The position numbers were made by a program, and so were the translations under genes. Shown here in pieces: positions 28,996-35,911 of a DNA stretch of 64,000 nucleotides; the stretch's first letter is position 1, and the number at the start of each line of letters is the position of its first letter. The notes beneath the pieces were generated by a model. That model did not search any database and had not been told where the DNA came from. It saw nothing but the letters and a program-made list of their open reading frames with translations. This stretch comes from a virus (lineage: Duplodnaviria; Heunggongvirae; Uroviricota; Caudoviricetes). The stretch spans positions 33,689-97,688 of IMG/VR virus record IMGVR_UViG_3300012909_000001; one strand, given 5' to 3'.

Positions 28996-30693
28996 ATGGG
29001 TAAATCAAATTCCAAACTCGCTGCTGCTATAGGAGCTAAAACTCCTAATCCAAAAGTAGTAGAAGCAAAAGCTATCCCGAAACCTGATACAAAGAATTTA
29101 TCAGGTAGTGAAGCTTACAAGCAAGACAAGTGGTTGAAACTACTTACTATGCTTAATGTACTGAAATTACAGCCTCAGTATTACAGGACAGAAAAACAGA
29201 CTTTAATAGATTTGCAAAATCTTATTAAAGAGTGTGCTGCTGAAGACCTGTACTTAACTTGTCAATGTATTGTGTATTCAAGATGTCTTGGAGAAGGTAT
29301 GAGAACTATTTCTCATGCAGCTTCAGTATTTATTGCACCTTATGTATCAGGACAGGATTATTCTAAAAGATTTTATGGTCTTTGGAATAAGAAAGAGAAA
29401 AGAGGTGGTGTAATCTTCAGACCTGATGATATGAGTGAAATCATAGCTGGGTTTGTAGCTCTCAATGGAGAGTACAGTACAACAACTGTAACAACAAGCT
29501 CTGCTAAGGGAACTTCAGTAGATATATCTACTGAAGTTACAGGTCCGAAATTAACTAATGCTATGAAGAAAGGTTTCAAAGAAGCTCTTGAGAATTTAGA
29601 TTCTTATTCTCTTTTGAAATACAAATCTACATTGGTTGATGTTATTAACTTAGTACATCCAAGAAGTAGTATCTCACAACAGATTGTTAAAGTCAATGGT
29701 GAAGATGTCTACACACTTGATGCAATCATGAGAGGACTTAATGTGTCAGCTGATACCTGGGAAGTAAACCAGGGAGAAGCAGGACAGATTGTGGCTAAAG
29801 CTGTTAAAGAAGGGAAACTGGATGAAACAGAAGCTAAAGAGGTCTTAACTCAGGCTAAGGCAGATAACTGGGAAGAATTGCTTGACAGCAACAGACTTGG
29901 TATCCTTGCAGGAATCAGAAATCTGAGAAATGTACTTCTGAATAAACCTAAGTCAACCACTATCAGCAAACTTTGTAATCTGGTATCTGATGGCAAACTT
30001 ATCAGAGAAGGTAAAATCATGCCATATCAATTAGATTTAGCTAATGAGATTATGATGTCTGAATTCAGTAACCCTGATTCCAGAGCTATATCTCAGGCAC
30101 TTGCTAAAGGATATGAAGAGGCTGTACCTAATCTGAAACTTATGCTTCCGGGTAGAAATATTATCATGCTTGACATGTCAATGTCTATGAGTTCTTATGA
30201 TATCAGACTTGCTAATGGTAAAACAGGACAAAGTTCAGCAGAGAAAGCATCATTACTTGCAGCTACAATAGCTAAGGCTACCAATGCTGATGTAATTGTG
30301 TTTGGTACTTCTGCTAATTATGTACAGTACAATCCTAATGCTGATGTATTTACAATTGCAAAACAATTGTGTAATGCACACATGGGAGGAACTAATCTGT
30401 CACTGGCATGGAGTTTAGCACAAAGGTCAGGTAATCAGTATGACAGAGTGTTTATTCTGTCTGATAACGAATGTAATAAGGCAAGCACTTATAGTTCTTA
30501 CATGTCATATGTAAAAGCTGTAGGTAGTCCTTATGTGTACTCAGTGGATTTAGCAGGTTACGGTACTAACTGTATTGCTGGAGATAAAGTGAGATATTAT
30601 TTTGGTTATGGATTTCAAATGTTTGATGATATTGCTTCATCAGAGTTTAATCCTAACTATCACCTTGAAAAAGTTAAACAAGTAATTATATAA
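28996..30693 (+). CDS. rsr: Ro60/TROVE-domain protein with a C-terminal vWA domain (Rsr-like)
   Basis: 565 aa. The vWA MIDAS motif is present as DMSMS (DxSxS) with a downstream GGT at the position of the MIDAS threonine. From memory of Ro60 sequences, segments QYYRTEKQ, LTCQC, GGTNLSLAWSLA and VFILSDNE align with Ro60 TYYIKEQK, ICSQC, GGTDCSLPMIWA and VFIVFTDNE. The size matches Ro60. Confidence 0.6.
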   Translation: MGKSNSKLAAAIGAKTPNPKVVEAKAIPKPDTKNLSGSEAYKQDKWLKLLTMLNVLKLQPQYYRTEKQTLIDLQNLIKECAAEDLYLTCQCIVYSRCLGEGMRTISHAASVFIAPYVSGQDYSKRFYGLWNKKEKRGGVIFRPDDMSEIIAGFVALNGEYSTTTVTTSSAKGTSVDISTEVTGPKLTNAMKKGFKEALENLDSYSLLKYKSTLVDVINLVHPRSSISQQIVKVNGEDVYTLDAIMRGLNVSADTWEVNQGEAGQIVAKAVKEGKLDETEAKEVLTQAKADNWEELLDSNRLGILAGIRNLRNVLLNKPKSTTISKLCNLVSDGKLIREGKIMPYQLDLANEIMMSEFSNPDSRAISQALAKGYEEAVPNLKLMLPGRNIIMLDMSMSMSSYDIRLANGKTGQSSAEKASLLAATIAKATNADVIVFGTSANYVQYNPNADVFTIAKQLCNAHMGGTNLSLAWSLAQRSGNQYDRVFILSDNECNKASTYSSYMSYVKAVGSPYVYSVDLAGYGTNCIAGDKVRYYFGYGFQMFDDIASSEFNPNYHLEKVKQVII

Positions 30694-30695
30694 CC

Positions 30696-30926
30696 ATGAA
30701 TCCATTCAGTACTAATATAGCATCATTACAACAAGAAAGTGATGATGCTATTGGTATCTTCAAGAAAACACTTAATAAGTTAACTGGAGTGAATACCAAA
30801 ATTCTTGCAGAGCAAGAGAAAAGAACCTCAAAGATTGAAGTATTAATCAATGAGAATGCAGCACTTGAGAAAGTTGCGCAAAGCAATAACAAGTATATTG
30901 CAAAAATCAACGAATTTTTAACCTAA
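30696..30926 (+). CDS. Hypothetical small coiled-coil protein
   Basis: 76 aa ORF. Confidence 0.35.
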   Translation: MNPFSTNIASLQQESDDAIGIFKKTLNKLTGVNTKILAEQEKRTSKIEVLINENAALEKVAQSNNKYIAKINEFLT

Positions 30927-30938
30927 AAACCCGAAGAT

Positions 30939-31301
30939 ATGTATTTAACACATAACGGAGAAGAGTTGGCATTCAAGTGGCATCATGACACTGAGAATAA
31001 TACAACTCATTGCGTAGTCACCAAGACAAGTGATAATTCAGAGGTAGCACATACTATGAGTAAAGTGCATCCAAATGACAATTATGACAGAGCTGAAGGA
31101 AGAAGAAGAACTCTTGGAAGAGTAATTCAGTCTCTTTATCCTACTTCAAAAGTAGATGAGGAGATTACACCAGAAGAGAAAGTTGCTGCTAAAGCAGGAA
31201 GACTTGAAATCTGGAGTCAATATGCTAACTGGAAGTCTGAAGAACCAAGAATGACTCTTGGAACTAAGAAAGAAAGAAAAGCAAAACTTAAAGTAGCATA
31301 A
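30939..31301 (+). CDS. Hypothetical protein
   Basis: 120 aa ORF. Confidence 0.4.
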   Translation: MYLTHNGEELAFKWHHDTENNTTHCVVTKTSDNSEVAHTMSKVHPNDNYDRAEGRRRTLGRVIQSLYPTSKVDEEITPEEKVAAKAGRLEIWSQYANWKSEEPRMTLGTKKERKAKLKVA

Positions 31302-31397
31302 CATGCCATTAAAAGTTGCAGAACTCGTAGCAATAGTTGCTGTTGTTGTATGGGTCTTCTGGATTACATACAAAGCAATTAAATCAGCATCTAAATA

Positions 31398-31616
31398 ATG
31401 GGAGCAATCTTATATTGGTTAGGTGCATTTATAGTGTTTATCATTCTTTGTAAACTATGGGCTAAAGAAATTCAGCGCAAAAGAGACAGACATTATGATT
31501 TGGTAGAGATATGGCAGTTTTGGCTGCTTATTATTACACCATTGACCTGGACATTTATGGTCCCAATCCTGCTTGTGATTAAAGCACTGAGTCTAATTTT
31601 CAATAAATTTAAATAA
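31398..31616 (+). CDS. Small membrane protein
   Basis: 72 aa with two hydrophobic helices. Confidence 0.35.
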   Translation: MGAILYWLGAFIVFIILCKLWAKEIQRKRDRHYDLVEIWQFWLLIITPLTWTFMVPILLVIKALSLIFNKFK

Positions 31617-31625
31617 ATAATCAAA

Positions 31626-32387
31626 ATGAAAAAATCTTTATTATTGTTTGCACTTAGTGCATTCGCATTGGTTTCCTGTGAGTCTGTCGGACCTAAGGAA
31701 AGAGGAGTTGAAGTGTCCTATGGAGGACAAACTAATATGGCACAGGTGTATTCACCTGGTATGGCAAATGGTTTTCACTGGATGTTTGATGATATGGTCA
31801 AGTATGACGTATCACAAGCAACTGTAGTGGAAAAATACGAGTTTAATGATGCCAAGAATATGTTAACAGGAGTGGAAATTTCTGTGGACTATTCTTTGGA
31901 CCCGGCTAAAGTGAATTTGCTACATGCAAATATCAATAACTATCATATAAAACTCGAAAAAACCATCAAAGCTGCCGCGAAGGAAGTTATTCCTCAATAT
32001 GCCGCATCTGACTTAAACCTTACTAAAAGGGGAGAAGCAGAGGCCAAAATTGCAGCCATTTTAGCCAAAGAGCTACCGGATTTCTATCTGTTATTTGATA
32101 GGGTCCAGCTTACTGATGTGGATATCCCACTGGCTATATCACAAGCAGCAGAGTTAACAGCAAAACAAGCAGAGCTGAACAAGTTGGCAGATTCTAAGAA
32201 AACAGAAGCTGAGAACAACTTCCATGCCGCTGAATGGGATGCCAAGACTAAAAATGTATTGTCACAACCTGCCATGTTAAAGCTTAAAGAGCTTGAAATT
32301 GACATGGAATATGCCAGAAGAGGTGTATCTAAGTATGGTCAGAACAATGTATTTGGTGCTAATACCGGGATTTTACTGAATAAGTAA
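31626..32387 (+). CDS. Lipoprotein with an SPFH/band-7-like domain
   Basis: The lipoprotein signal MKKSLLLFALSAFALVSC has a lipobox. The motif KRGEAEAKIAAIL and a following coiled coil are typical of SPFH (HflK/C, stomatin) domains. Confidence 0.45.
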   Translation: MKKSLLLFALSAFALVSCESVGPKERGVEVSYGGQTNMAQVYSPGMANGFHWMFDDMVKYDVSQATVVEKYEFNDAKNMLTGVEISVDYSLDPAKVNLLHANINNYHIKLEKTIKAAAKEVIPQYAASDLNLTKRGEAEAKIAAILAKELPDFYLLFDRVQLTDVDIPLAISQAAELTAKQAELNKLADSKKTEAENNFHAAEWDAKTKNVLSQPAMLKLKELEIDMEYARRGVSKYGQNNVFGANTGILLNK

Positions 32388-32406
32388 GATTAAATAAAAA
32401 ACTTTA

Positions 32407-32448
32407 AAATATTTAACCTATCTCTTGGTAGGTTAAATATTTTTCTTT
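32407..32448 (+). terminator. Strong rho-independent terminator: 14 bp perfect stem AAATATTTAACCTA / TAGGTTAAATATTT with a T-run
   Basis: Seen directly, 20 nt after the stop of 31626..32387. A TACATTTG -7-like box follows at about 32446. Confidence 0.6.
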
Positions 32449-32972
32449 ACATTTGCAAAGTATTACAAAATATAAGGGCCTGACAGGCTTTGATTGCATA
32501 TATTAGATAATAATAATTCAGCCAGAGAGATAACTGTAAACTAAGGTGAATTTTATAAATGGAAACATAGATAACAACCCACAAGTAAAAGCTAATATGA
32601 CTATAGTACATAACATCTTAAATGGTGATATGGCAGTAGGTCAATCAAATGACTTAATTCTTTACGGAAAAGATGATTTATTAGTAGCTGCCTAAGCTTA
32701 AATAGGAAGGTTTTCATAACCATGAAGTTTGTAAAGACTTTAGAATCTCAAGATTTCTTACTTAGATTAAAGTAAGTGGTGGAGTTGCCAAATTGAATTG
32801 GCTCCAATTTCTAACGTAAAGAATTCAAACAAACGTGAAGCTGTATAAAATTATATTGTTGAGGTAGGTAAGACCTGACTTCGATGTCAGCAGGTCCACA
32901 AACTCTTTTATTGGTGTTTTAGAGTGGTTAGAAGTTTTTGGCAATTTTTCTTTGATAAAATTGCTACCATAG

Positions 32973-33042
32973 CTGCTGTAGTGTAATTGGCAACATAATA
33001 CCCTGTCACGGTATAGTTTGGAGTTCGAATCTCCCAGTAGCT
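32973..33042 (+). tRNA. tRNA-Asp (anticodon GTC)
   Basis: Acceptor GCTGCTG/CAGTAGC with one G-U pair; anticodon arm ATACC-CTGTCAC-GGTAT; T-arm GGAG-TTCGAAT-CTCC. The D-arm is atypical. Confidence 0.55.
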
Positions 33043-33071
33043 GCAAACATAAAGGGTAGTAATAATTAGGT

Positions 33072-33144
33072 TACTTCTTAGCTCACTTGGTAGAGCAAAA
33101 ATTTTAGGTATTTTAGGTAGTGGGTTCAACTCCCACAGAGGCAC
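33072..33144 (+). tRNA. tRNA with anticodon TAG, which would read the Leu codon CUA; the body is class-I-like with a short variable loop, so the identity is uncertain
   Basis: Canonical D-arm TAGCTCACTTGGTAGAGC; anticodon arm AAAAT-TTTAGGT-ATTTT; T-arm GTGGG-TTCAACT-CCCAC. The acceptor stem has one A-C mismatch. Confidence 0.45.
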
Positions 33145-33186
33145 TTAGGTGTTAACACCTAATTAACTTTCTCCCTTTATTTTTAT

Positions 33187-33259
33187 GCCTGATTAACTCA
33201 GTTGGTAGAGTAATTCCCTTGTAAGGATTAAGTCATAGGTTCGAACCCTATATTAGGCT
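33187..33259 (+). tRNA. tRNA-Thr (anticodon TGT)
   Basis: Full cloverleaf traced base by base: acceptor GCCTGAT/ATTAGGC, D-arm ACTC-AGTTGGTA-GAGT, anticodon arm ATTCC-CTTGTAA-GGATT, T-arm ATAGG-TTCGAAC-CCTAT. Confidence 0.85.
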
Positions 33260-33322
33260 CAGCATAAGTTTCATTGACATATTGGTTTAAATCAGAGTTA
33301 AAGTTCTCATAAAAACTTAAAT

Positions 33323-33395
33323 AGTACTGTAGCTTAATGGATAAAGCCTCAGATTTCTAATCTGATTATTGTAGGTTCAAGTCCTATCAGTACTA
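33323..33395 (+). tRNA. tRNA-Arg (anticodon TCT)
   Basis: Acceptor AGTACTG/CAGTACT perfect; D-arm GCTT...AAGC; anticodon arm TCAGA-TTTCTAA-TCTGA; T-arm GTAGG-TTCAAGT-CCTAT. Confidence 0.85.
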
Positions 33396-33401
33396 CAATT
33401 T

Positions 33402-33474
33402 GGACAGATAGCACAATGGTTAATGCTGTGAGCTGTTAACTCATAAGGTCTAGGTTCGAGTCCTAGTCTGTCCG
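33402..33474 (+). tRNA. tRNA-Asn (anticodon GTT)
   Basis: Acceptor GGACAGA/TCTGTCC; anticodon arm GTGAG-CTGTTAA-CTCAT; T-arm CTAGG-TTCGAGT-CCTAG. Confidence 0.75.
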
Positions 33475-33485
33475 CAAATAGCAAT

Positions 33486-33507
33486 AGTAACGTAAGAGTT
33501 ACTTCGG
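33486..33507 (+). repeat. Inter-tRNA hairpin family, copy 1: AGTAAC-GTAAGA-GTTACT followed by TCGG
   Basis: Shares the motif AGTAA...TTACTTCG(G/T) with the copies at 33933, 34027 and 34515. It lies 12 nt after a tRNA 3' end. Confidence 0.5.
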
Positions 33508-33563
33508 AACAAATTTTTAGCTTGTAATTCAACAAATACTCTTACAATTTTCTTTGCTTTTTT

Positions 33564-33638
33564 GGTTTATTAGCACAGTCTGGTCAGTGCAACTCCCTCA
33601 TAAGGAGAAGGTCAGTGGTTCAAATCCATTATAAACCA
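33564..33638 (+). tRNA. tRNA-Met (anticodon CAT), first copy
   Basis: Acceptor GGTTTAT/ATAAACC; D-arm GCAC-AGTCTGGTCA-GTGC; anticodon loop CTCATAA; T-arm AGTGG-TTCAAAT-CCATT. Confidence 0.75.
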
Positions 33639-33711
33639 CAAATAGTATAACACTATCAACATTAAAACATATTATAGCTGAATGTCTGTAACGTTTTATA
33701 CTATTTCTTTT

Positions 33712-33784
33712 GCTTCCTTAACTCAGTGAGAAGAGTGTCTCCCTTACATGGAGAAAGTCCCAAGTTCGAATCTTGGAGGAAGTA
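33712..33784 (+). tRNA. tRNA-Val (anticodon TAC)
   Basis: Acceptor GCTTCCT/AGGAAGT; D-arm ACTC-AGTGAGAA-GAGT; anticodon arm TCTCC-CTTACAT-GGAGA; T-arm CCAAG-TTCGAAT-CTTGG. Confidence 0.85.
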
Positions 33785-33789
33785 CTAAT

Positions 33790-33860
33790 GCAGATTTCAT
33801 CTAATGGTAGGATAGTGCTCTCCAAAAGCATTCATGGAAGTTCGAACCTTTCAATCTGCG
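33790..33860 (+). tRNA. tRNA-Trp (anticodon CCA)
   Basis: Acceptor GCAGATT/AATCTGC perfect; anticodon arm GTGCT-CTCCAAA-AGCAT; T-arm GGAAG-TTCGAAC-CTTTC. Confidence 0.7.
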
Positions 33861-33892
33861 CAAAATGTTATAGTTCATTAAAAACTAAATAC

Positions 33893-34016
33893 GGGGAAGT
33901 TTAAAAAAACTTGACTTATATGCTTATTCTCCAGTAATGGTAGTTACAGTATAAGTTACTTCGGAAAACATTTTTATCATAAGAAAATCATGTTGGTTCA
34001 AATCCAACCTTCCCCA
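33893..34016 (+). ncRNA. tRNA-like RNA, 124 nt: 7 bp acceptor-type terminal stem GGGGAAG/CTTCCCC plus a canonical T-arm GTTGG-TTCAAAT-CCAAC, but with a roughly 50 nt non-canonical core. It could be an intron-containing tRNA or a Y-RNA/YrlA-like tRNA mimic
   Basis: Terminal stem, discriminator A and T-arm are seen directly. No canonical D-arm or anticodon arm was found. Hairpin copy 2 (33933-33964) lies inside it. Confidence 0.4.
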
Positions 34017-34026
34017 CAAAGACAGT

Positions 34027-34048
34027 AGTAAAGTATAACTTACTTCGT
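34027..34048 (+). repeat. Inter-tRNA hairpin family, copy 3: AGTAA-AGTATAAC-TTACT followed by TCGT, then an orphan T-arm-like hairpin ATTGG-TTCGAAT-CCAAT at 34055-34071
   Basis: Seen directly. Confidence 0.5.
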
Positions 34049-34208
34049 AATTTATTGGTTCGAATCCAATCACAGCCTTTGGCTATGTAGACAAACTGGT
34101 TAAGTCACTTTTCTTTAAAAAAAGCACAAACACTTTTCAGTTATACTAATTTCTCTGTCATTTTTATCAAGGTTTAAGAGGGCTGTACCTATAAACAGCC
34201 CATTATAA

Positions 34209-34282
34209 GGACCAGTAACTCAGTCTGGTAGAGTGTTCCCCTGAAGAGGGAATGGTCATAGGTTCAAATCCTATTTGGTCCA
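34209..34282 (+). tRNA. tRNA-Phe (anticodon GAA)
   Basis: Acceptor GGACCAG/TTGGTCC; D-arm ACTC-AGTCTGGTA-GAGT; anticodon arm TTCCC-CTGAAGA-GGGAA; T-arm ATAGG-TTCAAAT-CCTAT. Confidence 0.85.
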
Positions 34283-34342
34283 CTATTGTAGATTGTTACT
34301 AATTCATAGGACTGGAAAGTCACGTAAGCATAGAATTAGAAT

Positions 34343-34424
34343 GGAATATGAAAGTCATCTTGGATATGGCAGGCAGACTGTAAATCTGCTACGAAAGTGA
34401 GTGGTTCGAGTCCATCATATTCCA
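34343..34424 (+). tRNA. tRNA-Tyr (anticodon GTA), type II with a long variable arm
   Basis: Acceptor GGAATAT/ATATTCC perfect; anticodon arm GCAGA-CTGTAAA-TCTGC; roughly 11 nt variable arm; 82 nt in total. Confidence 0.7.
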
Positions 34425-34430
34425 CACATC

Positions 34431-34504
34431 TGTGGGTTGGTAGTAAATGGTTAACTCGCTGGGCTCATATCCCAGAGCTGAGGGTTCAAGTCCCTTGCCC
34501 GCAA
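34431..34504 (+). tRNA. tRNA with anticodon CAT, second copy; could be initiator Met, elongator Met or Ile2 (lysidine)
   Basis: Acceptor TGTGGGT/GCCCGCA with two G-U pairs; anticodon arm CTGGG-CTCATAT-CCCAG; T-arm GAGGG-TTCAAGT-CCCTT. Confidence 0.65.
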
Positions 34505-34514
34505 CTAAAAGAGT

Positions 34515-34536
34515 AGTAAGAGTTAAGTTACTTCGT
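34515..34536 (+). repeat. Inter-tRNA hairpin family, copy 4: AGTAA-GAGTTAAG-TTACT followed by TCGT
   Basis: Seen directly, 11 nt after the preceding tRNA. Confidence 0.5.
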
Positions 34537-34586
34537 TTACCATAAAATTAACTAAAAAATACTTAATTCATTTTCTCTCTTTAAAT

Positions 34587-34659
34587 CTGGTATTATATCA
34601 ATTGGTAGATTACGTGCTTTGGGAGCACGAGGCTGTAGGTTCAAGTCCTGCATACCAGA
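34587..34659 (+). tRNA. tRNA-Pro (anticodon TGG)
   Basis: Acceptor CTGGTAT/ATACCAG perfect; anticodon arm CGTGC-TTTGGGA-GCACG; T-arm GTAGG-TTCAAGT-CCTGC. Confidence 0.8.
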
Positions 34660-34790
34660 CAACACAGTTGGTCACACACTACAGTTCGTGATAGGGTTCC
34701 ATATCCTTATATACTGGTAAATTTTGTATTATTTTTGAATAAAGAAATTTTACAGGCTAACAAGTAGTATACTGCTTTTAGTAACAGATT

Positions 34791-34841
34791 GAGATTATTC
34801 TATTATCTTGTGTTAAGACTTAGATAAATCTCAATTTTTTT
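34791..34841 (+). terminator. Extended hairpin (GAGATT..TTATCT loop AGATAA..AATCTC) followed by A2T7; a terminator-like structure inside the tRNA array
   Basis: Seen directly. Confidence 0.45.
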
Positions 34842-34843
34842 AT

Positions 34844-34919
34844 TCCCTCGTTGCTTAGTCTGGCTCAAAGCACCACACTTTTAATGTGGGTATCAATGGT
34901 TCGAATCCATTCGAGGGAA
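34844..34919 (+). tRNA. tRNA-Lys (anticodon TTT)
   Basis: Acceptor TCCCTCG/CGAGGGA perfect; D-arm GCTT-AGTCTGGCTCA-AAGC; anticodon arm CCACA-CTTTTAA-TGTGG; T-arm AATGG-TTCGAAT-CCATT. Confidence 0.9.
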
Positions 34920-34984
34920 CAAGTGATGTAATTTTGTATGTTTTATTACATTGTGACCATTAGGTACACTTACAAACATATAAT

Positions 34985-35067
34985 GCAAGAGTGGCTTAAC
35001 AACGAATTGGTATAGTGGTAATACTTAGGATATTACAGCTTTGGGAGTTCGAGTCTCCCCTCTTGTA
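34985..35067 (+). tRNA. Atypical tRNA, 83 nt, with anticodon TAG and an unusually long region between the acceptor and the anticodon arm; identity uncertain
   Basis: Acceptor GCAAGAG/CTCTTGT; anticodon arm TAATA-CTTAGGA-TATTA perfect; T-arm GGGAG-TTCGAGT-CTCCC perfect. A 27 nt D-region could not be folded canonically. Confidence 0.4.
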
Positions 35068-35072
35068 CAAAT

Positions 35073-35146
35073 GGCTCGGTGGTGCAACTGGTAGACACAT
35101 AGAGCTTAAGCCTCTAAAAGTATGGGTTCGACTCCCTTTCGAGCTA
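35073..35146 (+). tRNA. tRNA with anticodon TAA (Leu, UUA) and a class-I-like short variable loop
   Basis: Acceptor GGCTCGG/TCGAGCT with terminal G-U pairs; anticodon arm TAGAG-CTTAAGC-CTCTA perfect; T-arm ATGGG-TTCGACT-CCCTT; discriminator A. Confidence 0.55.
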
Positions 35147-35161
35147 CTAAAATTATTTATT

Positions 35162-35227
35162 ATGGCTATATTTATTGGAATTGTTTTAGTAATCTGTATT
35201 GTTTGCATACTCTCAGGTGCAGAGTAA
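35162..35227 (+). CDS. Tiny hydrophobic peptide ORF, MAIFIGIVLVICIVCILSGAE, between tRNAs
   Basis: It is preceded by an AAATTATTTATTATG leader similar to those at 35321 and 35640. Confidence 0.3.
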   Translation: MAIFIGIVLVICIVCILSGAE

Positions 35228-35232
35228 ATTAT

Positions 35233-35318
35233 GGAAGGTATCCGGCAGGATGAGGAGCCTGTCTTGAAAACAGGTAGTGGCTAATTACCATTGATGAGTT
35301 CGAGTCTCTCACCTTCTT
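35233..35318 (+). tRNA. tRNA-Ser (anticodon TGA), type II
   Basis: Acceptor GGAAGGT/ACCTTCT; anticodon arm CCTGT-CTTGAAA-ACAGG perfect; roughly 20 nt variable arm. The T-stem is imperfect. Confidence 0.65.
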
Positions 35319-35332
35319 CTAAATTATTATTA

Positions 35333-35416
35333 TGATAAGATTATTAGTATTCTTTGTAGTTTTTACTGTTATTCTTATACTTGGTCACAAGTATTTGAAA
35401 TGGGATGGTGAATAAA
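35333..35416 (+). CDS. Tiny hydrophobic peptide ORF, MIRLLVFFVVFTVILILGHKYLKWDGE
   Basis: Preceded by AAATTATTATTATG. Confidence 0.3.
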
Positions 35417-35546
35417 AATTAGTCCTGTACCCTTGAATCCTATTAATTGCTAAGTGATGAACTTAGGATTATAACATGGAGTAGACCCGGATAAGTTCAG
35501 CAGGATAGGTATTGTTATAAAAGGGTTTAAAGACTTTACCATTTAC

Positions 35547-35631
35547 AGAAAGGTGCCAGAATGGTATTGGAGCAGATTGCTAATCTGTCGGAGCCTCAAA
35601 ACTTCTCAGGGTTCGAGTCCCTGTCTTTCTA
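35547..35631 (+). tRNA. tRNA-Ser (anticodon GCT), type II
   Basis: Acceptor AGAAAGG/TCTTTCT; D-arm CCA-GAATGGTAT-TGG; anticodon arm GCAGA-TTGCTAA-TCTGT; 18 nt variable arm; T-arm CAGGG-TTCGAGT-CCCTG. Confidence 0.7.
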
Positions 35632-35651
35632 CTTAGTTTTAAATTATTATT

Positions 35652-35828
35652 ATGAGCAGAACTATCAGAAAAGATGTTAATGACAAGCCTTACACAGAAG
35701 GTAGAACATCTAAAATAAGATATAGATGTCATTGTATTTATTGTGCAGGTCATGACAAGAATCAACTTGTTGAAAAAATAAGAAAAAAAGAATTAAATAA
35801 ACAATTAAAAGAATTGTCATGTGGATAG
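35652..35828 (+). CDS. Small Cys-containing protein ORF (58 aa), MSRTIRKDVNDKPYTEGRTSKIRYRCHCIYCAGHDKNQ..., between tRNAs
   Basis: Preceded by AAATTATTATTATG; it has a CHCIYC motif. A 28 aa hydrophobic ORF follows at 35819..35905. Confidence 0.3.
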   Translation: MSRTIRKDVNDKPYTEGRTSKIRYRCHCIYCAGHDKNQLVEKIRKKELNKQLKELSCG

Positions 35829-35911
35829 TATTTGTAATATTGCTAATTGGAGCAATTCTCTTCTGGGAACCAGGAGATGATAATGATTATCCACATTTTG
35901 GATAGTTAAAT

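What the first reader, a model, noticed from the sequence alone, without database searches (positions are those of the whole stretch)
28996..30693. Ro60/TROVE-vWA (Rsr-like) RNA-binding protein encoded by the phage, 2 kb upstream of a tRNA/tRNA-mimic array
The 565 aa protein has a vWA MIDAS motif (DMSMS...GGT) at the position expected for Ro60. From memory of Ro60 sequences, several segments align with Ro60 (QYYRTEKQ with TYYIKEQK, LTCQC with ICSQC, GGTNLSLAWSLA with GGTDCSLPMIWA, VFILSDNE with VFIVFTDNE). Ro60/Rsr proteins bind Y RNAs, including tRNA-like YrlA-type RNAs, and misfolded RNAs. Their genes are usually adjacent to Y RNA genes. The nearby tRNA array here contains at least two tRNA-mimic or structured RNAs (33893-34016 and 36483-36579).
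Basis: partly seen in the sequence, partly recalled or inferred. Interest (0 to 1): 0.8.

Follow-up and report, generated by a model that had tools for sequence, protein, structure and literature searches.

The report
Phage Ro60 with divergent Y RNAs
A crAss-like phage encodes a genuine Ro60 RNA-binding ring protein, and its tRNA gene cluster holds several copies of a previously uncatalogued variant of the small "Y RNAs" that partner Ro60, a variant also found next to Ro60 genes in many other phages and in Bacteroidota and Chloroflexota bacteria.

Summary
ORF 28996-30693 (+), 565 aa, is a Ro60/TROVE-vWA protein. Pfam vWA_Ro60 passes its cut-off and TROVE misses by 0.1 bit. A family profile hits solved Ro60 structures at 1.7e-27 to 1.4e-4. 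The AF2 model's top 13 PDB matches are all Ro60, over the full length. The MIDAS residues are intact.

The host is a crAss-like phage (Crass_capsid, 1.5e-142). Phage Ro60 with Y RNA partners is already known (mycobacteriophages, jumbo phages, Thermus phage phiLo), so the protein is a new member of a known kind.

An Rfam YrlA-like RNA lies at 37546-37666 (42 bits, below the curated score). Four copies of a conserved element lie at 33049-34582: outer stem, bulged helix U-AGUAA/UUUCU, 9-bp stem, UACUUCG, variable insert. All 14 stem pairs covary. The element is 107:1 sense:antisense around 78 viral Ro60 genes. It also sits directly upstream of Ro60 in cellular genomes, where the core reads GGCGA, the canonical Y RNA motif. 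No Rfam family matches it.

I read these as divergent Y RNAs. Ro60 binding and function are inferred, not shown.

The parts
28996..30693 (+). Ro60 (TROVE + vWA/MIDAS) ortholog, 565 aa. HEAT-repeat ring roughly aa 30-380, vWA domain aa 387-565.
   Evidence: ORF. Pfam vWA_Ro60 33.7 bits and TROVE 22.9 bits. PHROG 850 4e-27. Profile vs PDB Ro60s 1.7e-27 to 1.4e-4. AF2 plus Foldseek: top 13 hits are all Ro60, full length.
30172..30186 (+). MIDAS DxSxS motif (D393-M-S395-M-S397). The remaining MIDAS residues are T466 and D490.
   Evidence: D393, S395, S397, T466 and D490 are invariant in the 75-sequence alignment A4. Aligned to DVSAS of Xenopus Ro60.
32406..32443 (+). Long AT-rich terminator-like hairpin separating the Ro60 gene block (28996-32387) from the RNA gene array.
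   Evidence: Terminator scan, 17-bp stem followed by a T-rich tail.
33049..33180 (+). Y RNA-like element, copy 1. Outer stem AAAGGG/CCCUUU, bulged helix UAGUAA/ACUUUCU, inner stem UAAUUAGGU/ACCUAAUUA, UACUUCU, and a 78-nt non-permuted tRNA-like insert that ARAGORN calls 'tRNA-Leu(tag)' (33072-33144).
   Evidence: MFE reproduces both stems, z = -2.5; orthologous inserts in relatives carry seven different 'anticodons'.
33480..33558 (+). Y RNA-like element, copy 2 (short, YrlB-like, 31-nt insert).
   Evidence: Covariance model R1: 35.0 bits, E = 1.1e-5, + strand only. MFE reproduces the stems.
Acceptor-like stem, long hairpin in place of the D arm containing UAGUUA, then GUUACUUCGG, an anticodon-like arm (CAU) and a T arm.
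   Evidence: Partial Rfam tRNA match, 25 bits. Fold z = -3.2. Conserved in L010 and L012.
34021..34159 (+). Y RNA-like element, copy 3. Outer stem GACAG/CUGUC, UAGUAA, inner stem AGUAUAACU/AGUUAUACU, UACUUCG, and a 91-nt insert with a permuted tRNA-like module (T arm, hairpin, D arm).
   Evidence: Weak Rfam YrlA match, 21 bits, at 34030-34139. Compensatory changes against the L013 homolog.
34508..34582 (+). Y RNA-like element, copy 4 (short, 25-nt insert).
   Evidence: Model R1: 36.6 bits, E = 4.5e-6. MFE.
37546..37666 (+). YrlA-like RNA. Closing stem CAAUAG/CUAUUG, then T arm, acceptor-like hairpin and D arm.
   Evidence: Rfam RF02553 YrlA 42.3 bits, full-length model match, E 6.8e-7 in 8.4 kb, below the gathering score of 69. 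Compensatory changes in the T stem and the acceptor-like stem against L011.
37680..37720 (+). Conserved hairpin with a CGAA-containing loop (AACGAAGG...UUGACC), between the YrlA-like RNA and the tRNA(CUA).
   Evidence: Fold z = -4.9. Two compensatory pair changes with a conserved loop in L011.
32971..38289 (+). tRNA array (24 ARAGORN calls) in which the Y RNA-like genes are embedded.

Best explanation
The ORF encodes a true Ro60 ortholog, a HEAT-repeat ring closed by a vWA/MIDAS domain, in a crAss-like phage. Its RNA partners are most likely a battery of phage-encoded Y RNAs transcribed from the same strand inside the tRNA array. These are four copies of a divergent Y RNA type (33049-34582), one YrlA-like RNA (37546-37666), and a related tRNA-like RNA (33893-34017). 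Each divergent copy has a two-part closing stem. Its conserved centre is a sequence-specific bulged helix: 5' U(bulge)-A-G-Y-A-A paired with 3' U-C-U-U-U plus a 2-nt bulge. This is an A/U-shifted form of the canonical GNCGAA Ro-binding helix. An invariant UACUUCG follows, and then a variable module that is either a short loop, a permuted tRNA-like domain, or a non-permuted tRNA-like domain. By analogy with Xenopus, Deinococcus, Salmonella and Thermus phage phiLo Ro60 RNPs, Ro60 would bind the bulged helix on its outer surface, and the variable module would tether or gate other factors. The best-documented such factor is the host 3'-5' exoribonuclease PNPase; tRNA-recognising enzymes are another possibility. 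This would adjust RNA decay or quality control during infection, in a genome region devoted to translation upkeep (tRNAs, tmRNA, suppressor tRNA). Shown here: the protein family and predicted fold, RNA structure conservation, and a strand-specific genomic linkage of the element to Ro60 genes across viruses and bacteria. Inferred: physical Ro60 binding, the effector, and the biological role.
For: Protein. These give HMM, profile and fold matches to Ro60 only, with MIDAS intact. RNA structure: all 14 stem pairs show changes on both sides, 147 double-changed cells against at most 20 in the slid-register controls. When the 5' motif is not imposed, 54 of 56 elements still have it, and loop position 2 pairs with 3'-loop position 7 in 56 of 56 (A-U 51, G-C 5). 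G.U 63 against A.C 11 under symmetric scoring, which indicates selection on the sense-strand RNA. MFE folds reproduce the architecture. Model R1 finds the two short copies at E about 1e-5, + strand only, with nothing else in 64 kb. Linkage: a motif scan of all viral contigs gave 118 new loci, of which 20 encode Ro60 within a few kb, including 14 of the 22 with a full element. The base rate is 34 of 50,697 phage records. Conversely, 78 viral Ro60 loci hold 107 sense and 1 antisense elements, often 46-300 nt from the gene. The element accompanies Ro60 proteins only 25-35% identical to this one, with its own terminator. Strict elements lie upstream of Ro60 in 16 of 36 cellular Bacteroidota/Chloroflexota loci with none antisense, and 8 of 11 loci checked have no tRNA gene called. 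Relation to known Y RNAs: the cellular core motif is GGCGA or AGCGA, grading to AGCAA and AGUAA in phages. The short copy plus tRNA-like copy pair mirrors YrlB/YrlA. Rfam YrlA matches at 37546-37666 and, in csAssE-Sib, beside two such elements. Precedent: Chen 2014 (PMC4201824) and Hu 2025 (PMC12135203, phage Ro60 binds Yrl RNAs and attenuates PNPase).
Against: No binding or expression data exist. The literal GNCGAA(N)G motif is absent from the four window copies. The YrlA-like RNA scores below Rfam's gathering threshold (42.3 vs 69) and lies 6.9 kb from the gene, outside the 4-kb criterion used by Chen et al. The NCBIfam Rsr equivalog model scores only 17 bits (cut-off 900), so this is a distant ortholog. 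In the window the gene and the RNAs are separated by four small ORFs, a Band_7 gene, a terminator-like hairpin and a tmRNA, so they are probably not one transcript. A Ro60 clade at 45-49% identity lacks the element. Stem partners were partly chosen by pairing, which inflates the percentage paired (caveat). No PNPase, RtcB or other effector gene is nearby.
Confidence: 0.72

Rival explanations
1. The UAGUAA/UACUUCG elements are punctuation of the tRNA array, for example processing sites for RNase III/E/P or stabilising stems around tRNA-like cargo. They would be linked to Ro60 only because both travel with tRNA islands, and Ro60 would act on other RNAs such as misfolded tRNAs or rRNA.
For: In this window all four copies lie between tRNA genes. 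Several enclose tRNA-like inserts that ARAGORN and Rfam score as tRNAs. tRNA genes are also near the element in many viral loci.
Against: Eight of eleven cellular loci checked carry the element immediately upstream of Ro60 with no tRNA called anywhere in the locus. In the distant viral clade it is a stand-alone unit with its own terminator next to Ro60. Short copies have no cargo to process. The core motif grades into the canonical Ro-binding GGCGA.
Confidence: 0.12
2. The protein has the Ro60 fold but has been repurposed. It would work through its vWA/MIDAS domain as a protein-binding adaptor, for example with the MoxR-type AAA+ ATPases encoded upstream of it in relatives, rather than as a Y RNA-binding protein.
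For: AAA/AAA_5 ATPase genes lie 1-4 kb upstream of the Ro60 gene in relatives L010, L011, L014 and L015. MoxR ATPases commonly pair with vWA proteins (established knowledge). The role of MIDAS in Ro60 is unknown (PMC12135203). The NCBIfam Rsr equivalog test failed.
Against: The window itself has no ORF of 330 aa or more between 14.5 kb and the Ro60 gene. The full TROVE ring is retained and conserved. The tight, strand-specific, deep co-conservation with a structured RNA is not explained by this reading.
Confidence: 0.06
3. The repeated elements are DNA-level features, such as a miniature inverted-repeat mobile element, a homing-endonuclease target or a replication/recombination site, and not RNAs.
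For: They are multi-copy, have inverted-repeat architecture and variable cargo. Homing endonuclease genes (GIY-YIG, HNH) are nearby in some loci.
Against: Strand bias of 107:1 relative to Ro60. G.U outnumbers A.C 63 to 11 on the sense strand under symmetric scoring. Stems covary while the sequences differ between copies, so these are not recent copies. Terminators follow on the sense strand. The tRNA-like modules are in sense orientation.
Confidence: 0.03

Closest known systems
Bacterial Rsr (Ro60) with YrlA/YrlB Y RNAs (Salmonella Typhimurium, Mycobacterium smegmatis; Rfam RF02553; Chen et al. 2014, PMC4201824)
   Same: Ro60 ring plus vWA protein. Two or more small RNAs encoded on the same strand near the gene. 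One type carries a tRNA-like module (T arm, acceptor-like hairpin, D arm) and one is a short hairpin type. A closing stem carries a conserved purine-rich 5' motif; in cellular relatives of this family the motif is literally GGCGA.
   Different: In the phage the motif is AGUAA in a bulged helix with a conserved Y.U mismatch. There is an additional invariant UACUUCG. Some copies carry a non-permuted tRNA-like module. There are four to six copies embedded in a tRNA array 2.4-6.9 kb from the gene rather than directly adjacent. There is no rtcBA repair operon. Rfam YrlA scores are below threshold, or there is no match at all.
Thermus phage phiLo phiRo60 with Yrl1/Yrl2 (PDB 9KOP, 9L5Y; Hu et al. 2025, PMC12135203)
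   Same: A phage-encoded Ro60 and the closest solved structure (profile E 1.7e-27; Foldseek E 5e-14). Phage-encoded Y-like RNAs lie near the gene. This provides the only experimental model for phage function: RNA binding, a RYPER-like complex with host PNPase, and attenuation of PNPase.
   Different: Only 18% identity in the structural alignment. The phiLo RNAs are hairpins defined by a CGAA motif and lie directly upstream of the gene. No tRNA-like modules or tRNA array were reported for phiLo.
Ro-like proteins of mycobacteriophages and jumbo phages, with YrlA (Pedulla 2003 as cited in PMC4201824; Iyer et al. 2021, PMC7824862)
   Same: Large phages that combine a Ro60/TROVE gene, a tRNA-like partner RNA and many tRNA genes. 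The combination is interpreted as part of an RNA repair and translation maintenance toolkit.
   Different: Different phage lineage (here Crassvirales, about 100 kb). About 22-26% protein identity to actinophage Ro-like proteins. Different Y RNA subtype.
Deinococcus radiodurans Rsr-Yrn1-PNPase (RYPER)
   Same: Fold match (2nvo, Foldseek E 1.1e-13). Yrn1 has a tRNA-like domain whose orientation differs from YrlA, showing that both orientations occur among Y RNAs (PMC4201824).
   Different: A cellular stress-response system. No sequence similarity of the RNAs was tested here.

Membership tests
Ro60 / TROVE family (Pfam PF05731 + PF25045) | TROVE domain recognised by the family HMM | tested here: met
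   The window protein alone scores 22.9 bits against a cut-off of 23, which is marginal. However, 75 of 75 aligned family members match TROVE at E <= 1e-3, best 3e-13, and the family profile hits four different solved Ro60 proteins at 1.7e-27 to 1.4e-4.
Ro60 / TROVE family (Pfam PF05731 + PF25045) | C-terminal vWA domain of the Ro60 type with MIDAS residues (DxSxS...T...D) | tested here: met
   PF25045 vWA_Ro60 33.7 bits, above the cut-off of 27.7. D393, S395, S397, T466 and D490 are invariant. Aligned to the Xenopus Ro60 MIDAS.
Ro60 / TROVE family (Pfam PF05731 + PF25045) | Ring of HEAT-like helical repeats closed by the vWA domain | tested here: met
   Based on a predicted structure only: AF2 pLDDT 78.8, pTM 0.56. 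Foldseek against PDB: ranks 1-13 are all Ro60 structures, 541-618 aligned columns, TM 0.34-0.60 normalised to the target.
Ro60 / TROVE family (Pfam PF05731 + PF25045) | Binds Y RNA on the outer surface and misfolded RNA ends in the central cavity | not testable with these tools
   Needs EMSA, RIP or a solved structure.
NCBIfam NF041674 RNA-binding protein Rsr (equivalog) | Score at or above the curated equivalog cut-off | tested here: not met
   17 bits against a cut-off of 900. The protein is a distant ortholog, not a close equivalog of characterised bacterial Rsr.
YrlA Y RNA (Rfam RF02553) | Covariance-model score at or above the gathering threshold (69 bits) | tested here: not met
   37546-37666: 42.3 bits, full-length model match, E 6.8e-7. 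34030-34139: 21.2 bits. The short copies have no match.
YrlA Y RNA (Rfam RF02553) | Permuted tRNA-like module: T arm, acceptor-like hairpin, D arm | tested here: met
   Present in 37546-37666 and 34021-34159, with compensatory changes against homologs.
Bacterial/phage Y RNAs in general (criteria of Chen et al. 2014) | Encoded on the same strand as Ro60 and within about 4 kb | tested here: met
   The elements at 33049-34582 lie 2.4-3.9 kb downstream on the same strand. 37546-37666 is on the same strand but 6.9 kb away. In relatives and cellular genomes the elements are 46-600 nt from the gene.
Bacterial/phage Y RNAs in general (criteria of Chen et al. 2014) | GNCGAA(N)G / CGAA motif in the 5' strand of the closing stem | tested here: not met
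   The window copies read UAGUAA, so there is no literal match. At the same position, cellular relatives read UGGCGA or UAGCGA and phage relatives AGCGA, AGCAA or AGUAA, a graded series that keeps R-G-Y-R-A. A CGAA motif does occur in the loop of the 37680-37720 hairpin.
Bacterial/phage Y RNAs in general (criteria of Chen et al. 2014) | Bound and stabilised by Ro60 in vivo | not testable with these tools
   Only genomic linkage was shown.

The most novel reading that the evidence does not exclude
The phage deploys a Ro60 RNP armed with a set of five or six Y RNAs whose interchangeable tRNA-like heads (permuted, non-permuted, D-arm-replaced) act as decoys or sensors for host tRNA-targeting defences and tRNA-processing enzymes. 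Examples of such defences are anticodon nucleases and the PNPase/degradosome. The RNP would thereby shield the phage's own 24-tRNA, tmRNA and suppressor island. The invariant UACUUCG, the exact complement of the canonical Y RNA CGAAG motif, would be a second recognition or trans-pairing site specific to this Bacteroidota/Chloroflexota/phage branch.
Probability: 0.15. Interest if true: 0.8.

Novelty: new variant of a known kind. Interest (0 to 1): 0.55.

Why it matters
Ro60 is a conserved RNA quality-control protein and a major human autoantigen. Its bacterial and phage biology depends on finding the Y RNA partners, which have been hard to detect outside Proteobacteria and Actinobacteria. This analysis gives a concrete, testable sequence-structure definition of a Y RNA subtype that current Rfam models miss. 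The subtype accompanies Ro60 in crAss-like and jumbo phages, of which 395 viral stretches encode relatives, and in Bacteroidota and Chloroflexota genomes. Some phage 'tRNA' annotations are really Y RNA modules, including a suppressor-like 'tRNA-Stop' and odd isoacceptors next to Ro60 genes, which affects tRNA counts and codon-usage inferences. The work also places Ro60 RNPs in Crassvirales, an abundant and hard-to-culture phage order, as part of a translation-maintenance island. Finally, it offers short (about 75-80 nt) natural RNAs for direct binding and structural studies.

Tried and rejected
- Megablast of the gene against annotated phages gave no match; only protein-level hits exist, at 31% identity or less.
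- The Rfam gathering-threshold scan returned only tRNAs. The permissive scans were needed.
- BLASTN with the candidate RNAs found few homologs. The family only became visible through an architecture scan and inspection of the flanks.
- I considered that the 3' hairpin at 37680-37720, which has CGAA in its loop, is the sole Ro-binding module. This is not excluded, but the hairpin occurs only in the window and in one relative.
- I considered minus-strand transcription, since on that strand UACUUCG would read as the canonical CGAAGUA. It was rejected on four grounds: the 107:1 strand bias relative to Ro60, sense-strand terminators, the orientation of the tRNA-like modules, and G.U 63 against A.C 11.
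- A first attempt at the G.U vs A.C test with a fixed register was too noisy (169 'other' mismatches). It was replaced by a symmetric-scoring version.
- The covariance model R1, which has no insert, cannot span the long-insert copies and returns them as split halves.
- TAG or TGA recoding as an explanation for the tRNA(CUA): no support.
- Pfam and PHROG scans of the small ORFs around Ro60 found nothing except Band_7 and DUF7873.
- The supplementary tables of Chen 2014 and two Wolin-lab reviews were not available. I therefore could not check which Bacteroidota YrlA RNAs were already listed.
Full report
OBSERVATION

The ORF is real: ATG at 28996, stop at 30693, + strand, 565 aa. ARAGORN finds 24 tRNA genes, all on the + strand, from 32971 to 38289; Rfam confirms 21 of them at gathering score. 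The window is a phage. The major head, portal and large terminase genes lie on the minus strand at 7-14.5 kb, and the DNA polymerase and ribonucleotide reductase genes on the plus strand. The major capsid protein matches Pfam Crass_capsid over its full length (E 1.5e-142), so this is a crAss-like (Crassvirales) phage. The source contig is 100,452 bp. GC content is 32.9%.

THE PROTEIN

Family libraries:
- Pfam vWA_Ro60 scores 33.7 bits (cut-off 27.7), and TROVE 22.9 bits (cut-off 23), covering aa 274-350.
- PHROG 850 'RNA-binding protein' scores 4e-27 over aa 32-527.
- The NCBIfam Rsr equivalog scores only 17 bits (cut-off 900), so the protein is a distant relative of characterised bacterial Rsr.

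As a single sequence the protein hits the Thermus phage phiLo Ro60 (9kop/9l5y) at 5e-7 and Xenopus Ro60 at 3e-4. The family is very large in metagenomes: 1994 hits at E <= 1e-3, and a second clade at about 34% identity whose members JGI names '60 kDa SS-A/Ro ribonucleoprotein'.

A 75-sequence alignment with the window protein first (A4) gave these results:
- All 75 members match TROVE.
- As a profile it hits phiLo Ro60 at 1.7e-27, human RO60 at 1e-7, Xenopus Ro60 at 1.5e-7 and Deinococcus Rsr at 1.4e-4.
- The invariant columns include D393, S395 and S397 (the DMSMS MIDAS motif), T466 and D490.

AlphaFold2 on A4 gave mean pLDDT 78.8 and pTM 0.56. Low confidence is confined to residues 1-28, to 161-182 (a Ser/Thr-rich stretch absent from the L008 relative's protein) and to 253-259. 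In a Foldseek search of the PDB, ranks 1-13 are all Ro60 structures (phiLo, Deinococcus, Xenopus, human), aligned over 541-618 columns at E 5e-14 to 1.6e-10. From rank 14 onward the hits are isolated vWA domains. The HMMER alignment to Xenopus Ro60 confirms the remembered C-terminal correspondences.

WHAT IS ALREADY KNOWN

- Chen et al. 2014 (PMC4201824) found YrlA-type Y RNAs near Ro60 in 254 bacteria and 22 phages. They lie within 4 kb on the same strand, carry a GNCGAA(N)G motif near the 5' end and a tRNA-like module, and usually come with a second, hairpin-type Y RNA. The authors expected further sequence and structure variants.
- Iyer et al. 2021 (PMC7824862) list TROVE proteins with a tRNA-like partner among jumbo-phage RNA-repair functions.
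- Hu et al. 2025 (PMC12135203) solved the phiLo phage Ro60. They showed that it binds two phage Yrl RNAs defined by a CGAA motif, and that it forms a complex with host PNPase that attenuates the nuclease.
- A GenBank gut phage, csAssE-Sib, is already annotated with a 'Ro sixty-related protein'.
- I found no paper on Ro60 in crAss-like phages.

The protein is therefore a new member of a known kind.

THE RNAs

A permissive Rfam scan of 30600-39000 gave:
- a full-length YrlA (RF02553) match at 37546-37666: 42.3 bits, E 6.8e-7, gathering score 69;
- a weak YrlA match at 34030-34139 (21.2 bits);
- a tmRNA-like match at 32476-32901;
- nothing at candidate 2.

The 37546-37666 RNA has a closing stem (CAAUAG/CUAUUG), an inner stem, a T arm, a 7-bp acceptor-like hairpin and a D arm. 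Against its only homolog (L011, 84-90% identical) the T stem and the acceptor-like stem show compensatory double changes. The following hairpin (37680-37720, loop AACGAAGG...UUGACC, z = -4.9) shows two more. Rfam YrlA found nothing in five other close relatives.

I then scanned for the arrangement T arm, hairpin, D arm outside called tRNAs, and found such modules in nearly every related locus. Their flanks revealed a shared frame, mapped:

5' outer stem (5-8 bp) - UAGUAA - inner stem (9 bp) - UACUUCG - insert (11 to about 150 nt) - inner stem' - A(A/U/C)UUUCU - outer stem' 3'

Sixty-three distinct copies occur in the window plus 14 loci. The window copies are:
- 33049-33180, 78-nt insert;
- 33480-33558, 31-nt insert;
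- 34021-34159, 91-nt insert, which holds the weak YrlA hit;
- 34508-34582, 25-nt insert;
- a rearranged relative inside candidate 1 (33893-34017).

Evidence for the structure:
- On a fixed-register alignment of 34 copies (A3), all 14 stem pairs show changes on both sides. There are 147 double-changed cells against 7-20 when the 3' partners are slid by 1-3 columns, and the covariation score is 0.866 against 0.24 for shuffles. Because partners were chosen by pairing, the percentage paired is inflated; the diversity of pair types in a fixed register is the real evidence.
- Unconstrained MFE folding reproduces both stems in all four window copies.
- A covariance model built from A3 finds the two short window copies at E 4.5e-6 and 1.1e-5, on the + strand only, and nothing else significant in 64 kb.
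- When the 5' motif is not imposed, 54 of 56 elements still carry UAGUAA-like sequence. Loop position 2 pairs with 3'-loop position 7 in 56 of 56 (A-U 51, G-C 5). Then come G-C (53), a conserved Y.U mismatch (U.U 44, C.U 8) and two A-U pairs. The conserved 'loop' is therefore a sequence-specific helix with a bulged U on the 5' strand and a 2-nt bulge on the 3' strand. That is the kind of bulged, conserved helix that Ro60 recognises in Y RNAs (PMC12135203, introduction).

The inserts fall into three classes:
- Short loops.
- Permuted tRNA-like modules of the YrlA type.
- Non-permuted tRNA-like modules. In these, CUUC(U/G) of the invariant motif pairs with (A/C)GA(A/G)G after the T arm to form a 5-bp acceptor-like stem, followed by a covarying mini-hairpin.

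ARAGORN calls the non-permuted modules tRNAs. However, the orthologous copy just downstream of Ro60 in relatives carries 'anticodons' tag, tta, taa, ttt, atc, ttc and gca, and the window's 'tRNA-Leu(tag)' is 73 nt long and lacks the long variable arm of a real tRNA-Leu. These modules are mimics, not decoders.

LINKAGE TO Ro60

- Forward test. Of 118 new loci, 22 hold a full element and 14 of those encode a Ro60 relative within the 2-14 kb fetched. Six further Ro60 loci have relaxed elements, and 90 loci have neither. The base rate of Ro60 among annotated phages is 34 of 50,697 records.
- Deep conservation. The element accompanies Ro60 proteins only 25-35% identical to this one. There it is a stand-alone unit upstream on the same strand, followed by an intrinsic terminator (Ro60 ORF in L017). 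No Rfam family matches these.
- Converse test. A profile search found 395 viral stretches encoding relatives. In the 78 loci kept (1.1 Mb) there are 107 full elements on the Ro60 sense strand and 1 on the antisense strand. Elements are present in 4 of 4 loci at >= 65% identity, 33 of 44 at 50-64%, 2 of 11 at 40-49% and 10 of 19 below 40%. The nearest copy is often 46-300 nt from the gene.
- Cellular genomes. Thirty-six loci encode relatives at 26-45% identity, mostly Bacteroidota (including the isolate Neolewinella persica DSM 23188) and Chloroflexota. Strict elements occur upstream of Ro60 in 16 of 36, with none antisense, and TTACTTCG lies within about 450 nt upstream in many more. In the Chitinophagales locus L226, a short copy is followed by a copy with a permuted tRNA-like insert, then a terminator and then Ro60, which is a YrlB/YrlA-like pair. 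Neolewinella has three tandem copies. Eight of eleven cellular loci checked have no tRNA gene called.
- Strand. With G.U and A.C scored symmetrically, 98 elements show 63 G.U against 11 A.C on the sense strand. This points to selection on an RNA transcribed from the Ro60 strand, not on DNA.

RELATION TO CANONICAL Y RNAs

At the position of the phage AGUAA, cellular copies read GGCGA (4), AGCGA (3) or GGCAA (1). Viral copies read AGUAA (42), AGCAA (11) and other variants. GGCGA is the G-N-C-G-A of the canonical motif; the Rfam YrlA consensus reads cGGCGAaug paired with uCGCCg. The phage motif is therefore best read as an A/U-shifted version that keeps R-G-Y-R-A in a very AT-rich genome. csAssE-Sib has two such elements (UGGUGA/GCUUUUCC), both annotated as tRNAs, plus a weak Rfam YrlA match, all just upstream of its Ro60 gene. 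I conclude that the elements are divergent Y RNAs of the YrlA/YrlB family, with an extra invariant UACUUCG of unknown role.

MECHANISM

Shown: the protein family and predicted fold; conserved RNA structure; strand-specific and evolutionarily deep linkage of the RNA to Ro60 genes.

Inferred: Ro60 binds the bulged helix, and the variable heads tether or gate partners. PNPase is the best precedent, from Deinococcus, Salmonella and phage phiLo. tRNA enzymes are plausible for the tRNA-like heads; M. smegmatis YrlA is cut by RNase P and receives CCA (PMC4201824).

In this phage the RNAs sit in an island together with 24 tRNAs, a tmRNA and a tRNA(CUA). The most likely role is therefore to tune host RNA decay or quality control so as to keep the phage's translation apparatus working. 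I give about 0.95 that the protein is a Ro60 ortholog, about 0.7-0.75 that the elements are its RNA partners, and about 0.35 for the PNPase-centred role specifically.

CAVEATS

- There are no expression or binding data.
- The literal CGAA motif is absent from the four window copies.
- The Rfam and NCBIfam curated thresholds are not met.
- The Ro60 gene block (28996-32387) is followed by a terminator-like hairpin at 32406-32443, so the protein and the RNAs are probably separate transcription units.
- The Ro60 clade at 45-49% identity lacks the element.
- I could not check which Bacteroidota loci Chen et al. had already scored, because their supplement is not held.

VERDICT

The protein is a new member of a known kind. 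The RNA partner type is a variant that is not in Rfam 15 and that I did not find in the searchable literature. It is widespread in phages and in two bacterial phyla.

Noticed in passing
window 32476-32901 (+): tmRNA-like gene at the head of the tRNA array. Rfam tmRNA scores 34.5 bits (gathering 47) and ARAGORN does not call it, but homologs in relatives are called by ARAGORN (L010, L013, L015), and two of them pass Rfam's threshold (L015 66.2, L013 60.6 bits). The predicted tag is unusually long: ANMTIVHNILNGDMAVGQSNDLILYGKDDLLVAA*, starting at 32591.
   Followed up: partly
window 37721-37797 (+): An amber-suppressor-type tRNA (anticodon CTA, which ARAGORN labels 'tRNA-Pyl') immediately follows the YrlA-like RNA and its hairpin. 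Reading TAG or TGA as sense does not lengthen ORFs appreciably, so there is no genome-wide recoding. TAG is a rare stop codon (4 of 71 ORFs of 100 aa or more; TAA 50, TGA 17).
   Followed up: partly
window 33072-33144; also L003 11710, L004 11820, L005 10910, L006 5512, L007 11779, L008 11901, L207 5633 and 5778: tRNA finders and GenBank annotation call the tRNA-like heads of Y RNA-like elements as tRNAs (Leu-tag, Stop-tta, Lys, Asp-atc, Glu, Cys, Tyr...). tRNA inventories of Ro60-encoding phages are therefore probably inflated and contain spurious 'suppressors'.
   Followed up: yes
It has a closing stem AAAGCCAU/AUGGCUUU and three hairpins (z = -2.6), sits between tRNA-Glu and tRNA-Ala, and has no Rfam match and no homolog in any fetched locus. 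Its status is unknown.
   Followed up: partly
L013 17991-18062 and L015 19686-19751: Sub-threshold RAGATH-1 hammerhead ribozyme matches (48.3 and 45.3 bits, gathering 56.3) directly after the last tRNA (Cys) of the array in two relatives. No equivalent match appeared in the window.
   Followed up: no
L010 5046-8736, L011 6199-7530, L014 5854-9644, L015 7613-8785: MoxR-type AAA/AAA_5 ATPase genes lie 1-4 kb upstream of the Ro60 (vWA/MIDAS) gene in several relatives. The window has no ORF of 330 aa or more between 14.5 kb and the Ro60 gene. A possible AAA+/vWA partnership was not explored.
   Followed up: no
window 36622-37446 (+) and 31626-32387 (+): Protein genes are interspersed in or next to the RNA island: a DUF7873 protein (E 7.7e-37) inside the tRNA array, conserved at the same place in relatives L011 and L001, and an SPFH/Band_7 lipoprotein-like gene that ends the Ro60 gene block.
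   Followed up: no
L017 3767-4417 and 6260-6901: GIY-YIG-type homing endonuclease-like ORFs flank the Ro60 gene in a distant viral relative. One is inserted between the Y RNA-like gene and Ro60.
   Followed up: no
L172, L174-L179, L183, L185: A viral Ro60 clade at 45-49% identity to the window protein, on contigs of 39-190 kb, lacks the UAGUAA/UACUUCG element within 8 kb. It may use another Y RNA type.
   Followed up: no
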